A DNA stretch of 64,000 nucleotides from Candidatus Elulimicrobium sp. (lineage in GTDB: Bacteria; Patescibacteriota; Minisyncoccia; Phycocordibacterales; UBA918), in the NCBI GenBank assembly GCA_020720815.1, contig DYNY01000003.1, positions 1,002 to 65,001 on the forward strand, written 5' to 3'. The notes beneath the pieces were generated by a model, which saw only the letters and a list, made by a program, of their open reading frames with translations, was not told the origin of the DNA and searched no databases. Both the position numbers and the translations under genes were made by a program. Below are positions 3,449 to 44,627 of this stretch, piece after piece (position 1 is the stretch's first letter; each line of letters begins with the position of its first letter).

Positions 3449-5062
3449 TTATGAGTTCATAAGTGGAAAGAGGTAAGCATACCCTTCTTTTTCCATATTA
3501 CTTTGTGAAATAAAACGGAGTGATGCAGAATTCATACAATATCGCTTACCACCCCTATCTGCTGGCCCATCATCGAACACATGCCCGAGATGTGAGTCAG
3601 CAAAGCGCGATCGGACTTCAGTTCGCTTTGTAAAGAGTGTACTGTCTTTGTGTAGCACAACTGCGTCATCCGTAATCGGTTTTACAAATGACGGCCACCC
3701 GGTGCCAGAGTCATATTTATCCTTTGAGAAATACAACGGTTCCCCCGATACAATGTCTACATAGATTCCCTCAACATCATTCTTATCATACTCGTTCTTA
3801 AATGGCGTTTCGGTTCCATCCTCTTGTGTCACCTCATACTGAATTGATGTGAGGCGAGCACGAAGAACTTCAGGGGAAGGCTTCATAAAACTTTGCCAAG
3901 AGTTTTCTTTGGAAGTTATAGTACTTGATCCTGGTTCAGTCCATATACTCGGAGTAACAAACGTATTTGCGGAATCGCCCCAATATTTTTTAATAAATGT
4001 ATCTCTTCCTGAGGCAGTGCGATATAAGTTGTACCGAACTGGATTCTTCTCAGAATAATCTTGATGATATTCTTCAGCTGCCCAAAATGGTACTCGCGGA
4101 GTGACCAGAAGCGGCAATGGATTAGGAAATGTACGAAGTGCATCAACCGTGTCAATGATCCGACGTGCTTCAATCTTTTCGATATCATTTTCGTAGAATA
4201 TTGCTGGTGCATATTCTTTTCCTCGATCACCGAAGGATCCTTCCGCGTCCGTTGGGTCACCGTGTTTAATGATATGTTCGACGAGGTTCCCAAATGTTAG
4301 GGTATTTGCATCATATGTTACCAACACTACTTCACGATGACCACCTTCCTCATAATTCTTATAGGTAGGATTCTCGGTAGACCCGCCCGCGTATCCCGAC
4401 ACTACATCAATAACCCCTGTAACTTCTTCAAGATCATGCTCCACGCACCAGAAACATCCGTTTGCAAGTAGAGCAGTCTTTTTCGACATCTCGTAATTTT
4501 GTTGTCCTGTGGTGGTGCTAGGAATTGGTATTTCGGCGGACTTGCTCATGTCATCACCGTCTTGCATAGAATCTTCAACACTCAATTCGTTTGAAGTTAA
4601 TCCACTAATACTAATGTCCGCGTAGTTAAACAAAACACCAAACTGTTTACACCACGTCATCACGTATTTATAATCAGAAATATCTACCTCTGCAGGAATA
4701 ATGTAGTTGATATTACCCTCTGTGCCACGTAGCTCCCCAAGACTCACAAACTCCTTACCTTCAAGATCTTTGCTTAAATATACAAATAAATCTGGGCCAT
4801 TGATTGTCTTGAAATTTTCATAACAAATAGTTTTTCCTTCCGGAGAATCAATGAGTCTTACGGTTCCTTCAGCTGGATGCCCAACTGTACCCATAACAGG
4901 ATAGCTCTCAACAATCATGACCTCGTCTTTACTACTAGAAACACTTAGCATTACTGGGGCTTCTTCGTTAAGTGTAACTGTTTTAAAGGTTGGAGAGATG
5001 GTGTAATAACCAAAACCGATGAGCACCGTGGCGACGACTGCAATAATTATTTTATTTAACAT
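3449..5062 (-). CDS. msrAB: Membrane-anchored/secreted DM13-MsrA-MsrB fusion (peptide methionine sulfoxide reductase A/B)
   Basis: N-terminal TM helix. DM13-like segment (…[37 protein letters not shown]…). MsrA motif GCFWCVEH…YAGG…NPTY. MsrB motifs (…GWPSF…HLGHVF…, CxxC pairs). Confidence 0.8.
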
Positions 5063-16383: not shown

Positions 16384-16572
16384 ATGAGTAAATTAAGTAA
16401 TTATCTAAGGGACACAATGGTAGAACTTAAGCAGGTATCTTGGCCGACGCAAAGACAAGCTTTTACGTATACAGCATTGGTGATTGTTATTTCAGTGTTC
16501 GTCTCTTTCTTTTTAGGGGCTTTCGATTTCCTATTTACTAAAGTGGTGGAGTTTATTGTTGGAACGGTTTAA
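16384..16572 (+). CDS. secE: Preprotein translocase subunit SecE
   Basis: 62 aa, with a C-terminal TM helix and …ELKQVSWPTQRQAFTYTALVIV…. It lies directly upstream of nusG. Confidence 0.85.
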   Translation: MSKLSNYLRDTMVELKQVSWPTQRQAFTYTALVIVISVFVSFFLGAFDFLFTKVVEFIVGTV

Positions 16573-16591: not shown

Positions 16592-17137
16592 ATGGCTAAA
16601 CAACAAGGCACAGGCGAACGGCATTGGTATGCAATACACACTTACTCCGGCTATGAAAACGCTGTAACCAGAAATCTAAAACAACGTATTGATTCACTTG
16701 GTATGAATGATAAGATTTTCAGTGTGGTAGTACCAACTGAAAAAAAGATTCGCGTGAAGGGAGGGAAGCGGGTAATGGAAGAAGAAAGAATTTATCCGGG
16801 TTATGTATTGGTAGAAATGATCGTCGATGATGAGTCATGGTATGTGGTACGTAATACACCTAGAGTCACCGGCTTTGTTGGTAGTGGTACTCAACCAGTC
16901 CCACTTACTCCAGCCGAATACAATGCTCTAATGGAACGAATGTCGACCGATACGGTAAAGCATAAACTTGATATTGCTCCCGGAGACATTGTTACGATTG
17001 TGGATGGGCCATTCAAAGACCTAGAAGGACACGTCGGTGAGGTTGATGAAAAGAGCGGTAAGGTTAAGGTTTTGGTGTCGATGTTTGGACGCGAGACCCC
17101 GGTCGAGCTAGATTTTTTGCAGTTAAAGCGTGTGTAA
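16592..17137 (+). CDS. nusG: Transcription termination/antitermination factor NusG
   Basis: NGN domain (WYAIHTYSGYENAV…) and a C-terminal KOW domain (…PGDIVTIVDGPFKDLEGHVGEVD…). Confidence 0.9.
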   Translation: MAKQQGTGERHWYAIHTYSGYENAVTRNLKQRIDSLGMNDKIFSVVVPTEKKIRVKGGKRVMEEERIYPGYVLVEMIVDDESWYVVRNTPRVTGFVGSGTQPVPLTPAEYNALMERMSTDTVKHKLDIAPGDIVTIVDGPFKDLEGHVGEVDEKSGKVKVLVSMFGRETPVELDFLQLKRV

Positions 17138-17260
17138 AAGATTCTAATTTTGCATATTGGCTTTGTTGGTCGTCAGAAAATTTTGTTCAATGTACGATAA
17201 AGTACACCTCACAAATTTTCTTTAACCGTCTCGCCATTGCATCAAAACTAAACCTTTTAG

Positions 17261-17287
17261 AAAAAAGCCCCTCGGGGCTTTTTTCTT
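17261..17287 (+). terminator. Rho-independent terminator after nusG
   Basis: aaaaaagcccctcggggctttttt. Confidence 0.7.
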
Positions 17288-17297
17288 GTTTTCCAAG

Positions 17298-17368
17298 CCC
17301 AGCCCCCCAGCTATTTGCGGAGGGCGAATATTGGGGTGGTGGGCGGAGCAAATAGCTGGGGGACTGGG
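17298..17368 (+). promoter_or_regulatory. GC-rich ~20-bp-stem hairpin with a G-rich 30-nt loop in the rplK leader
   Basis: cccagccccccagctatttgc … gcaaatagctgggggactggg is a near-perfect inverted repeat. The loop is ggagggcgaatattggggtggtgggcgga. Confidence 0.4.
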
Positions 17369-17494
17369 CGTAGGGGAATAAGACAGGCCTATTTCTATTG
17401 CAAAATAACCCTTTTTCTTGTAGGATACGCAAGCTTCTAAGTAGGAATCTGTAATGGAACAGGGACTGAAAATAATTTAAATTTAATCAACCAC

Positions 17495-17917
17495 ATGGCA
17501 AAAAAATTAGTAAAGAAAATCAAAGTTCAAGCCACAGGTGGAAAAGCTACACCAGCTCCACCTTTAGGACCAGTACTAGGACAAGCCGGTATTAATATCG
17601 GTGAGTTCGTTAATCAATTTAACGAACAAACACGTGACCGTATGGGTCAGGTAGTACCGGTAGAACTTTCGGTTTACGATGATCGTACTTTTACTTTCAT
17701 TACCAAAGTATCACCAATGTCTCGTCTTATTCTAAAGGCACTCGGTAAAGACAAGGGTTCAAGTAAGAATGCTGTATCAAAAGTCGGTACCCTTACACAG
17801 GCTCAAGTCAAAGCCATTGCTGAAGAAAAGATGGCTGATCTCAACGCTGCTTCACTCGAAGCTGCGATGAAAACAGTGGCCGGTACTGCGCGCTCAATGG
17901 GCGTAAACGTGGAATAA
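17495..17917 (+). CDS. rplK: 50S ribosomal protein L11
   Basis: …QATGGKATPAPPLGPVLGQAGINIGEFVNQFN…, the canonical L11 N-terminal domain. Confidence 0.95.
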   Translation: MAKKLVKKIKVQATGGKATPAPPLGPVLGQAGINIGEFVNQFNEQTRDRMGQVVPVELSVYDDRTFTFITKVSPMSRLILKALGKDKGSSKNAVSKVGTLTQAQVKAIAEEKMADLNAASLEAAMKTVAGTARSMGVNVE

Positions 17918-18113
17918 ATCCACGTTTACGAAGCTTTTGAGCTCTTTTATGAGCGATAGCGATGTAAAAGAGCCAAAAGGTATACAGTTTCTGTTAAGAA
18001 ATAAACGTGGAATAAATCCACGTTTACGAAGCTTTTGAGCTCTTTTATGAGCGATAGCGATGTAAAAGAGCCAAAAGGTATACAGTTTCTGTTAAGAAAT
18101 AAACGTGGAATAA
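17904..18113. repeat. Tandem direct repeat, 98-bp unit x ~2.1 copies, beginning inside the rplK stop region
   Basis: 17904-18001 is repeated exactly at 18002-18099, with a 14-nt partial third copy. Each unit holds two hairpins (acgtgga…tccacgt and gctctttta…taaaagagc). Confidence 0.9.
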
Positions 18114-44319: not shown

Positions 44320-44627
44320 TAAATGAATAGACGAGCGTAGCGACTACTATGAATTTAAGTATAAATAAGGAGTACGAAGTACGACTATATTTTACTTATG
44401 CAGGCGCTTAGTTGAGCCGCGACCCCAAAAGGAGCGGTCAACTGTAGCGCGTTTCTAGGCCCAGCAAATTGCTTGCCCAAGGCAAATCGCTGGAACCACG
44501 ACTCTAAGTGTCATTAACGCTCTGTTAAAAATGAATAATACGCCCACAGTTATACCAAACCCGCACATTAAAAGCAAAGCGTGTATAGTCAGATTTGTAA
44601 AAATTCAATGTTATTATATAAACACAT

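What the first reader, a model, noticed from the sequence alone, without database searches (positions are those of the whole stretch)
17298..17368. Exceptionally stable GC-rich hairpin with a G-tract loop in the rplK leader
Between the nusG terminator and the rplK start lies a ~20-bp near-perfect inverted repeat (cccagccccccagctatttgc / gcaaatagctgggggactggg). It encloses a 30-nt loop, ggagggcgaatattggggtggtgggcgga, with several G-runs that could form a G-quadruplex.

In many bacteria the rplK leader carries the L1-binding autoregulatory structure, but no L1 gene is present in this window. A structure this GC-rich stands out in ~40% GC DNA, so it may be a different regulatory or processing element.
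Basis: seen in the sequence. Interest (0 to 1): 0.5.

Follow-up and report, generated by a model that had tools for sequence, protein, structure and literature searches.

The report
Conserved hairpin upstream of rplK promoter
A very stable 73-base hairpin with a G-rich loop lies between nusG and rplK of an uncultured Paceibacteria (candidate phyla radiation, CPR) bacterium; its loop is conserved and its stem co-varies in the three related lineages that carry it, but it sits upstream of the rplK promoter, not in the leader, and its function is unknown.

Summary
Arms 17297-17318 and 17348-17369 pair at 21 of 22 positions around a 29-nt G-rich loop, far beyond chance, and the element is single-copy in the window.

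The placement is wrong. A promoter conserved across relatives (TTGCAA 17398-17403, 17 nt, TAGGAT 17421-17426) lies downstream of the hairpin. The hairpin therefore sits between the nusG terminator (17259-17286) and the rplK promoter. The true rplK leader (about 17433-17494) carries a different, widely conserved hairpin.

No Rfam family fits, and there is no match in phage or plasmid records.

Among about 200 related Paceibacteria loci, only three lineages carry the element, always at this site. Within these, a 30-nt core is 29-30/30 identical although synonymous sites in nusG are near saturation. Seven of the 15 inner stem pairs changed on both sides and still pair. Most relatives have a 100-150 nt spacer with no element, and the spacer is a hypervariable slot.

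The best reading is a young, lineage-restricted structured element acting as RNA; strand and function are unresolved. It is not an L1 operator, not a canonical terminator and not a dispersed repeat in the DNA sampled. Interest is moderate to low.

The parts
17297..17318 (.). Left arm of the hairpin (GCCCAGCCCCCCAGCTATTTGC). The inner 5 nt (TTTGC) belong to the conserved core.
   Evidence: The outer part is replaced by unrelated sequence that still pairs in L002 and L006.
17319..17347 (.). 29-nt G-rich loop, GGAGGGCGAATATTGGGGTGGTGGGCGGA.
   Evidence: G4Hunter 1.68.
17314..17343 (.). Conserved 30-nt core, TTTGCGGAGGGCGRATATTGGGGTGGTGGG. It is 29/30 or 30/30 identical among the window, L002 and L006.
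   Evidence: Fourfold synonymous sites of the flanking nusG are only 35-51% identical between the same genomes.
17348..17369 (.). Right arm of the hairpin (GCAAATAGCTGGGGGACTGGGC).
17312..17330 (+). Possible small alternative hairpin, UAUUUGC-GGAGG-GCGAAUA, mutually exclusive with the long stem. It forms only on the + strand.
   Evidence: -5.5 to -6.4 kcal/mol on + in all three lineages, -0.3 to -1.2 on -. A weak hint only.
17259..17286 (.). Bidirectional intrinsic terminator T1 (AGAAAAAAGCCCCTCGGGGCTTTTTTCT), 10 nt upstream of the hairpin. It ends nusG transcription on + and would end any - strand transcript that crosses the hairpin.
   Evidence: An equivalent terminator is present in L002 and L006.
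17398..17426 (+). Context: rplK promoter, TTGCAA (17398-17403), 17 nt, TAGGAT (17421-17426), downstream of the hairpin.
   Evidence: Inferred from conservation, not from the consensus scan. It scores 8/12, below the scan's cut-off. It is conserved in relatives with and without the hairpin. The strict pattern is found in 49 of 150 distinct upstream regions, mostly 59-70 nt before the ATG.
17433..17494 (+). Context: the real rplK 5' leader, with GCUUC at its start and a hairpin CUGU-AAUGGA-ACAG (17449-17462).

Best explanation
The element is a young, lineage-restricted structured element that works as a folded single strand, most likely RNA. A 22-29 bp stem, kept by compensatory change, presents a sequence-specific 30-nt G-rich core.

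It occupies the variable slot between the nusG terminator and the rplK promoter. I commit to the + strand reading. On transcripts that read through terminator T1, the hairpin forms at the 3' end of the secE-nusG message. There it acts as a second barrier or processing and stability module that insulates the rplK promoter, and its conserved loop is a recognition site for a protein or another RNA.

What is shown: the structure, its position, its restricted distribution, the conserved core and the compensated stem. What is inferred: transcription, the strand and the molecular role.
For: 1. The structure is far beyond chance and unique in the window.

2. The three lineages are old relative to each other. 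Fourfold-site identity in nusG is 44/86, 29/83 and 36/85, and in rplK 60/79, 47/75 and 54/74. Yet the core is 29-30/30 identical.

3. The arms next to the core are only about 70% identical between L002 and L006, and are unrelated in their outer half in the window (my count from the sequences). A recent transfer of the whole element therefore cannot explain the conservation of the core.

4. The stem is kept. Over the 15 inner pairs, 97.8% of cells pair and 7 pairs changed on both sides. None of 500 shuffles reached the covariation score or the count of pairs changed on both sides. Slid controls pair at 29-51%. The full stems are 22, 28 and 27 bp.

5. The neighbouring segments that are equally well conserved are the functional ones, the promoter and the leader.

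6. For the + strand: L002 has three G-U pairs that exist only on +, giving -40.3 against -30.7 kcal/mol for the arms alone. A small GGAGG-loop hairpin forms only on + in all three lineages.

7. Many relatives carry some long hairpin directly upstream of the rplK -35 element. A structural barrier at this spot is therefore a recurring feature.
Against: - Only three independent sequences exist, so the covariation statistics are thin. Palindromes can also be homogenised by template switching without any selection on RNA.
- On the + strand the element lies after a good intrinsic terminator, so few transcripts may reach it.
- It has no U-tract, so it is not itself a canonical terminator.
- A barrier or stability role does not explain why 30 nt of the loop are invariant.
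- The window and L006 each have one position that pairs only on the - strand (arms -47.5 against -43.0 and -46.2 against -42.0 kcal/mol). The strand evidence is therefore split.
- The loop length is not conserved: 29 nt here and in L002, about 122 nt between the arms in L006.
- Close relatives do without the element (L004, L093, L115).
Confidence: 0.32

Rival explanations
1. It is a small RNA gene on the - strand. A transcript would start near the rplK promoter region, fold into the hairpin with a C-rich loop (UCCGCCCACCACCCCAAUAUUCGCCCUCC), and end at the bidirectional terminator T1 just downstream. The conserved loop would be the seed that pairs with G-rich targets.
For: - The layout 'hairpin, 10-25 nt, intrinsic terminator' exists on the - strand in all three lineages. 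This layout is what produced the sub-threshold Thr_leader hit on the - strand (37.3 bits, E = 1.9e-5).
- The single non-Watson-Crick position in the window and in L006 is a G-U pair on -.
- The same slot holds - strand genes in relatives: a 106-aa membrane protein in L122, and others in L112 and L113. T1 therefore already serves - strand units.
- Candidate - strand promoters exist, by my reading of the sequences: TTGCAA-17-TAATCT in L006 and TTGCAA-15-TATAAT in L002. One search lists TTGCCA-16-TAAATT at 17501-17474.
Against: - The window's own - strand -10 candidate is poor (TATTCC).
- The L002 and L006 candidates would start transcription inside the outer arm, leaving the conserved outer pairs out of the RNA.
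- L002 has three A-C mismatches on -.
- No complementary target stands out in the window.
- Thirty invariant nucleotides is long for a seed.
Confidence: 0.25
2. It is a non-functional palindrome: a relic of repeated insertion, deletion and template-switch events in a recombination-prone spacer. The identity of the core would then reflect exchange between lineages rather than selection.
For: - The nusG-rplK spacer ranges from 21 to more than 2000 nt and holds unrelated cargo in different lineages.
- The 5' spacer types are distributed against the gene similarities. The window resembles L006 there, and L002 resembles L004, which indicates recombination.
- The element is missing in very close relatives.
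- The outer arms of the window look replaced as a block on both sides.
Against: - An exchange tract that carried only the 30-nt core, and not the arms that touch it on both sides, is implausible.
- Core identity of 30/30 stands against about 70% in the adjoining arms for L002 versus L006.
- Pairing is kept in three diverged versions.
Confidence: 0.2
3. It acts as DNA: a recognition site for a recombinase, HUH nuclease or regulator presented on an extruded hairpin, or a G-quadruplex on the non-template strand that affects the adjacent rplK promoter.
For: - Both strands can form the stem about equally well, as expected for a DNA palindrome.
- The core is asymmetric and strictly conserved, like a protein site.
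- G4Hunter is 1.7-1.8, and L006 carries a four-tract G3 motif.
- An IS3-family insertion right after nusG in L113 shows that the region attracts mobile DNA.
Against: - A loop of 29 to about 122 nt makes cruciform extrusion unfavourable.
- No recombinase, transposase or Rep gene is linked to the element in the carriers.
- The IS3 terminal repeats (TGAACCGACCCC) are unrelated to it.
- The distance to the promoter is not conserved: the core ends about 55 nt upstream of the -35 element in the window and clearly further upstream in L006.
- The window and L002 lack a fourth G3 tract in the loop.
Confidence: 0.12
4. It is a miniature mobile or dispersed palindromic repeat of the REP, ERIC or MITE type that happened to land here.
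For: - It shows presence/absence polymorphism at one site.
- An internal insertion variant exists (L006). From my own knowledge, ERIC elements show such variants.
- It sits in an intergenic position next to a terminator.
Against: - There is one copy in 64 kb.
- There are no further copies in about 780 kb of related DNA by Hamming scan, blastn-short or covariance model.
- The core pattern gives no hit in viral contigs or metagenome contigs.
- No target-site duplication is visible. The comparison of L002 with L004 shows a block replacement rather than a clean insertion.
Confidence: 0.06
5. It is an autoregulatory operator for ribosomal protein L1 or L11 in the rplK leader, as the first reader first considered.
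For: Only its proximity to rplK.
Against: - It lies upstream of the conserved promoter.
- It is absent from nearly all relatives that keep the same rplK gene and leader.
- There is no ribosomal-leader hit in Rfam even at E up to 10.
- No rplA gene follows rplK here or in the relatives' gene tables.
- Some CPR lineages, notably within Parcubacteria, are reported to lack L1 (bioRxiv 10.1101/2022.01.07.475337); whether this lineage does was not checked.
Confidence: 0.03

Closest known systems
L1-binding operator in the leader of the E. coli-type L11 (rplKA) operon
   Same: It lies near rplK and is a structured element that a reader would expect in this neighbourhood.
   Different: It is upstream of the promoter rather than in the 5' UTR. 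No rplA gene is co-transcribed. There is no Rfam ribosomal-leader match. It is present in only 3 lineages, whereas the real leader motif is present in about 115 of 150.
Intrinsic (rho-independent) terminators, including the long bidirectional ones common in this genome
   Same: It has a GC-rich, long, near-perfect stem located at the end of nusG. Relatives carry terminator hairpins at the equivalent spot just before the rplK -35 element.
   Different: The loop is 29 nt where terminators have 3-8 nt. There is no T-run after the stem on either strand. The loop sequence is conserved, which terminators do not need.
RNase III processing hairpins in ribosomal-protein and secE-nusG operon spacers of E. 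coli (from my own knowledge, not tested here)
   Same: A double-stranded stem of two or more helical turns (22-28 bp) sits between genes of the translation apparatus.
   Different: No cleavage data exist. Known RNase III sites do not need a conserved 30-nt loop.
Small RNAs with C-rich loops, such as RsaE/RoxS of Firmicutes (from my own knowledge)
   Same: On the - strand the element would be a hairpin with a C-rich loop followed by a terminator.
   Different: There is no sequence or Rfam similarity. The promoter is uncertain. This genome has almost no Shine-Dalgarno sites for such an RNA to target: 39 of 41 long ORFs have none.
REP, ERIC and MITE-type palindromic repeats
   Same: It is an imperfect palindrome in an intergenic region next to a terminator, and it has a size variant with an internal insertion.
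   Different: It is single-copy in all the DNA searched, has no target-site duplication, and is not linked to a transposase or a RAYT (REP-associated tyrosine transposase).

Membership tests
L11-operon leader / L1 operator | Lies in the transcribed 5' UTR of rplK, downstream of its promoter. | tested here: not met
   The conserved promoter at 17398-17426 is downstream of the hairpin, which ends at 17369.
L11-operon leader / L1 operator | An rplA (L1) gene is co-transcribed with rplK. | tested here: not met
   rplK is followed by a tandem repeat, a terminator and a convergent DHFR gene. No Ribosomal_L1 domain appears in the relatives' gene tables.
L11-operon leader / L1 operator | Conserved across the relatives that share the gene. 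| tested here: not met
   It is present in 3 lineages only.
Any Rfam family (release 15) | Score at or above the family's gathering threshold. | tested here: not met
   Only two tRNAs pass in the window. The best hit over the hairpin is Thr_leader at 37.3 bits against a threshold of 55. Nothing was found in the L006 version either.
Intrinsic terminator | A short loop and a U-tract directly after the stem. | tested here: not met
   The loop is 29 nt. The stem is followed by GTAGGGGAAT on + and TTGGAAAACA on -. It is not listed by the terminator scan.
Amino-acid operon attenuator (Thr_leader-like) | A leader peptide with regulatory codons plus alternative terminator and antiterminator structures upstream of a biosynthetic operon. 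| tested here: not met
   The score is sub-threshold. No conserved leader ORF exists: MGWW... agrees only over the nucleotides that are conserved anyway (my translation of the sequences). No biosynthetic operon follows.
Dispersed palindromic repeat (REP/ERIC/MITE) | Multiple copies per genome at unrelated sites. | tested here: not met
   There is one copy in the 64-kb window and none elsewhere in about 780 kb of related loci. Whole carrier genomes could not be scanned.
Dispersed palindromic repeat (REP/ERIC/MITE) | Target-site duplication, or a clean filled-versus-empty site. | tested here: not met
   L002 and L004 differ by a block replacement of about 150 against 65 nt, not by a clean insertion.
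G-quadruplex | Four G-tracts of three or more separated by short loops. | tested here: inconclusive
   There are three G3+ tracts in the loop of the window and of L002. L006 has four (G3N8G4N4G3N8G3). G4Hunter is 1.68-1.8. Folding in K+ cannot be tested here.
Structured RNA motif (generic) | Base pairs maintained by compensatory substitutions, with conserved unpaired nucleotides. | tested here: met
   Seven of 15 pairs changed on both sides and 97.8% of cells pair. The core is 29-30/30 identical. The test rests on only 3 sequences.
Stand-alone small RNA gene | Its own promoter and its own terminator on one strand. | tested here: inconclusive
   A terminator is present on the - strand. The promoter candidates are inconsistent among the three lineages.
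RNase III substrate | About 20 bp or more of near-perfect double-stranded RNA, cleaved by RNase III. | not testable with these tools
   The stem length criterion is met, at 22-28 bp. Cleavage is unknown.

The most novel reading that the evidence does not exclude
The element is a previously undescribed, clade-specific regulatory RNA of L1-less, Shine-Dalgarno-less Paceibacteria. It could be a trans-acting small RNA with a C-rich seed, or a G-rich (possibly quadruplex-capped) protein-binding hairpin. Either way it would couple expression of nusG/secE with that of ribosomal protein L11.
Probability: 0.22. Interest if true: 0.55.

Novelty: new member of a known kind. Interest (0 to 1): 0.35.

Why it matters
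Almost nothing is known about non-coding regulation in candidate phyla radiation (CPR) bacteria. These have tiny genomes, largely lack Shine-Dalgarno sites and, in this group, lack ribosomal protein L1, the usual regulator of the L11 operon.

A hairpin whose 30-nt loop core is frozen while synonymous sites around it are saturated is a real candidate functional element, and a handle for experiments. Its reach is narrow, at three lineages, so its general importance is limited.

The more broadly useful by-product is the true rplK leader motif, conserved in more than 100 related species.

Tried and rejected
- **Rfam.** I scanned the whole window at gathering thresholds, and the spacer of the window and of L006 at E up to 10 and up to 1 respectively. 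Only generic 'hairpin plus terminator' or microRNA-like hits appeared, all far below threshold.
- **tRNA and tmRNA.** Nothing at the site.
- **Phage and plasmid records.** blastn found nothing meaningful.
- **Pattern scans of public collections.** The 24-nt core pattern gave 0 hits in viral contigs and 0 in metagenome contigs. The metagenome collection evidently lacks the JGI contigs L001 and L002 that do carry the pattern, so that negative result is weak. A 16-mer gave 7 viral hits, all unrelated in context. A 19-mer gave none.
- **More distant copies.** Hamming scan, blastn-short and covariance model R1 over about 780 kb of related loci found only the three known lineages. The next-best hits were a generic hairpin (L162) and a stretch that by coordinates lies within the nusG gene of L081. 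A weak look-alike in L015 (TGTTTGCGG..GATATTGGGG, E = 0.63) sits upstream of an unrelated gene.
- **Small ORF or leader peptide.** GGAGGG, 7 nt, then TTG GGG TGG TGG would encode MGWW.... The peptides agree only where the nucleotides are conserved anyway, and this genome does not use Shine-Dalgarno sites, so I rejected it.
- **The 81-aa - strand ORF at 17187-17432.** It runs through the terminator. Rejected.
- **Mimic of the L11-binding 23S rRNA region.** A partial resemblance (AAUAGCU..ACUGG) exists only in the window's arm, not in L002 or L006. The comparison used the E. coli sequence from my memory. Rejected.
- **IS3 terminal repeats of L113.** Unrelated.
- **REP-type GTAG head.** It is on the wrong side of the palindrome and absent in L002 and L006. 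Rejected.
- **Remnant of the - strand gene seen in L122.** Only a 9 of 10 nt resemblance (CCAATATT region); not significant.
- **Complementary targets in the window.** Nothing beyond chance. Two adjacent 10-mers at 3964-3987 inside a coding region were judged coincidental.
- **RNAalifold on the rplK leaders.** It returned no structure because the loop register shifts between species. I replaced it with a per-sequence test.

Full report
**Observation.** The inverted repeat is real. The arms are 17297-17318 and 17348-17369, 22 nt each with 21 complementary positions, around 29 nt of G-rich sequence. The one odd position is C-A on the + strand and G-U on the - strand. As RNA, the 91 nt around it fold at -50.1 kcal/mol on + (z = -5.0) and -48.1 kcal/mol on - (z = -8.5), and no shuffle does as well. 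The arm and the loop each occur only once in the 64-kb window, with zero matches expected by chance. Two other assemblies carry the identical sequence (L001, L003), so it is not an assembly artefact.

**Context.** The gene order is secE (16384-16572), nusG (16592-17137), a 357-nt spacer, then rplK (17495-17917). The spacer holds four features:
- an AT-rich hairpin at about 17175-17221;
- a textbook bidirectional intrinsic terminator, T1, at 17259-17286;
- the hairpin under study, 10 nt after T1;
- TTGCAA (17398-17403), 17 nt, TAGGAT (17421-17426).

This last motif scores 8/12 against the sigma-70 consensus, so the scan does not list it. It is nevertheless conserved as TTGCAA/TTGCCA-17-TAGGAT/TACGAT in relatives with and without the hairpin. 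It is followed by a conserved transcript start, ACGCrGGCUUC. I therefore take it as the rplK promoter. The hairpin lies upstream of that promoter, not in the rplK leader.

**Known families.** Rfam at gathering thresholds finds only two tRNAs in the window. A permissive scan of the spacer gives Thr_leader on the - strand at 37.3 bits (threshold 55), a microRNA model and similar hits. All of these reflect 'long hairpin plus terminator', and no ribosomal-protein leader appears. ARAGORN finds nothing there. Phage and plasmid records hold nothing similar.

**Who has it.** The L11 protein places the window in Patescibacteria/Paceibacteria, near Kaiserbacteria metagenome-assembled genomes. I collected about 200 related loci:
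- 80 species representatives from genome contigs;
- 80 metagenome contigs;
- contigs found by exact look-up of L11 and NusG cluster members.

The nusG-rplK spacer ranges from 21 to more than 2000 nt. Many species have only 100-150 nt, which is the promoter plus the leader. The 30-nt core TTTGCGGAGGGCGRATATTGGGGTGGTGGG occurs only in the window's strain, in L002 and in L006. In each case it sits at the same place, between T1 and the promoter. Covariance model R1, built from the three, finds no further member in about 780 kb.

Very close relatives lack the element:
- L004 (L11 98.6% identical, 5' spacer nearly identical to that of L002);
- L093 (NusG 179/181 identical);
- L114, L115 and L118.

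The slot is a variable locus. In L113 an IS3-family element and a rearrangement follow nusG directly. L122 has a 106-aa membrane-protein gene on the - strand. By my reading of the spacer sequences, L012 and L014 have small hydrophobic ORFs. L115 has three other perfect hairpins.

**Signature of constraint.** The three carrier lineages are far apart. Fourfold-degenerate sites in nusG are 44/86, 29/83 and 36/85 identical, which is close to saturation. In rplK they are 60/79, 47/75 and 54/74. Against this background the core is 29/30, 29/30 and 30/30 identical.

The arms that touch the core are much less conserved. L002 and L006 differ at about 8 of 28 arm positions (my count on the sequences). 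In the window the outer 14 bp are replaced on both sides by unrelated GC-rich sequence. Pairing survives all the same. Over the 15 inner pairs, 97.8% of cells pair and 7 pairs changed on both sides. None of 500 shuffles reaches the covariation score, and slid controls pair at 29-51%. The full stems are 22, 28 and 27 bp.

The loop length is not fixed. L006 has about 100 extra nucleotides between the core and the right arm, including a partial copy of that arm.

A recent transfer of the element cannot explain a frozen core flanked by diverged arms, so selection on the core and on pairing is the simplest reading. Two cautions apply. There are only three sequences, and palindromes can keep their symmetry through template switching.

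**Is it a dispersed repeat?** Not in anything I could search. There is one copy in the window and none elsewhere in the related loci. The core pattern has zero hits in viral contigs and metagenome contigs. The metagenome collection lacks the JGI contigs that do carry the element, so that negative result is weak. I could not scan the carriers' whole genomes.

**Strand and mechanism.** The evidence is split.
- For the + strand: L002 has three G-U pairs that would be A-C on the - strand (arms alone -40.3 against -30.7 kcal/mol). A small alternative hairpin, UAUUUGC-GGAGG-GCGrAUA, forms only on + in all three lineages (-5.5 to -6.4 against -0.3 to -1.2 kcal/mol).
- For the - strand: the single odd position in the window and in L006 is G-U on -. 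The hairpin is followed on that strand by T1, the usual layout of a small RNA, and this drives the Thr_leader hit. The slot also holds - strand genes in relatives.
- Promoter candidates on the - strand are inconsistent. They are TTGCAA-17-TAATCT in L006, TTGCAA-15-TATAAT in L002 and a poor TATTCC in the window. The first two would start inside the outer arm.

The GGAGGG in the loop is not a ribosome-binding site in any ordinary sense, because 39 of 41 long ORFs in the window have no Shine-Dalgarno motif. A preprint reports loss of the anti-SD motif in L1-lacking Parcubacteria (10.1101/2022.01.07.475337). The short ORF that would follow it (MGWW...) is conserved only where the nucleotides are conserved anyway.

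The G-quadruplex idea gets partial support. G4Hunter is 1.68-1.8, but the loop has only three G3 tracts in the window and in L002. A fourth would have to come from the stem. L006 does have a four-tract motif.

**Verdict on mechanism.** My weights are as follows:

| Reading | Weight |
|---|---|
| + strand cis element at the 3' end of secE-nusG read-through transcripts: barrier, processing or stability hairpin, with the loop as a recognition site | about 0.32 |
| - strand small RNA | about 0.25 |
| Non-functional palindrome | about 0.2 |
| DNA-level site or G4 | about 0.12 |
| Mobile repeat | about 0.06 |
| L1/L11 operator | about 0.03 |

The structure, position, distribution, conserved core and compensated stem are shown. 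Transcription, strand and partner are inferred.

**Comparison with the known.** It is not a member of the L1-operator leader class: it is in the wrong place, there is no rplA, it is not conserved with the gene, and there is no Rfam match. It is not a canonical terminator, because the loop is 29 nt and there is no U-tract. It does not behave as a REP, ERIC or MITE repeat. Its 22-28 bp helix resembles RNase III processing hairpins, and on the - strand it resembles C-rich-loop small RNAs. Both comparisons rest on my own knowledge and were not tested. I file it as a new, orphan member of the general kind 'lineage-specific conserved intergenic stem-loop'.

**Noticed along the way.**
- The real rplK leader carries a motif found in about 115 of 150 distinct upstream regions. 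It consists of GCUUC at the 5' end and a two-part stem of variable sequence closed by an invariant loop nUAUGGA(A/C)C, followed by ACAAAA. The flanks of the loop pair in nearly all sequences (mean 9.8 pairs; mean z = -3.2 against shuffled 3' flanks), and 79 different hexamers precede the loop. It has no Rfam match. It is a good candidate ribosomal-protein leader in a group where the usual regulator of the L11 operon, L1, is not encoded next to rplK.
- A perfect 98-nt tandem duplication (2.1 copies) spans the end of rplK, at 17904-18113.

Noticed in passing
window 17433-17494 (hairpin 17449-17462); same position upstream of rplK in about 115 related loci: The true rplK 5' leader carries a conserved motif. 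It has GCUUC at the 5' end and a two-part stem whose sequence differs between species, closed by an invariant loop nUAUGGA(A/C)C, followed by ACAAAA. It is found in 114-116 of 150 distinct upstream regions. The loop is unpaired in the minimum-free-energy (MFE) fold in 107 of 114. Mean z is -3.2 against shuffled 3' flanks, and 79 distinct hexamers flank the loop. It has no Rfam hit. It is a candidate new uL11-operon leader; no rplA follows rplK in these loci.
   Followed up: partly
window 17904-18113: A perfect tandem duplication, with a 98-nt period, 2.1 copies and 100% identity. It starts in the last codons of rplK and contains a small hairpin, AAACGTGGA-ATAA-TCCACGTTT. Its origin and effect are unknown.
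   Followed up: partly
whole window: 39 of 41 long ORFs have no Shine-Dalgarno-like motif upstream. Several have a TATAAT-like hexamer within 25 nt of the ATG, which suggests leaderless or very short-leader mRNAs. This is consistent with the reported loss of the anti-SD motif in L1-lacking Parcubacteria.
   Followed up: partly
nusG-rplK spacer in related loci (L113 1635-3450; L122 1079-1399; L012, L014, L115): The spacer is a hypervariable slot of 21 to more than 2000 nt. L113 has an IS3-family insertion plus a rearrangement. L122 has a 106-aa membrane protein on the - strand. L012 and L014 have small hydrophobic ORFs ending in YG. L115 has three unrelated perfect hairpins, one of which (GAGTTTCGCC-TAGGGAG-GGCGAAACTC) shares GGAGGGCGAA with the core.
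   Followed up: partly
window 44331-44343 (- strand); L116 and L067 just upstream of rplK: A shared upstream motif, TCGCTACGCTCGT...TTCATTTA-ATG, precedes an unrelated gene in the window. It replaces the usual rplK leader in L116 and L067. It may be a portable promoter and leader cassette.
   Followed up: no
L015 6378-6417 (- strand): A small hairpin, CACTGTTTGCGGGAAGCAGATATTGGGGCTGGAAATAGTG, shares TTTGCGG and GATATTGGGG with the core. It lies just upstream of a different gene. The covariance-model E-value is 0.63, so it may be chance.
   Followed up: partly
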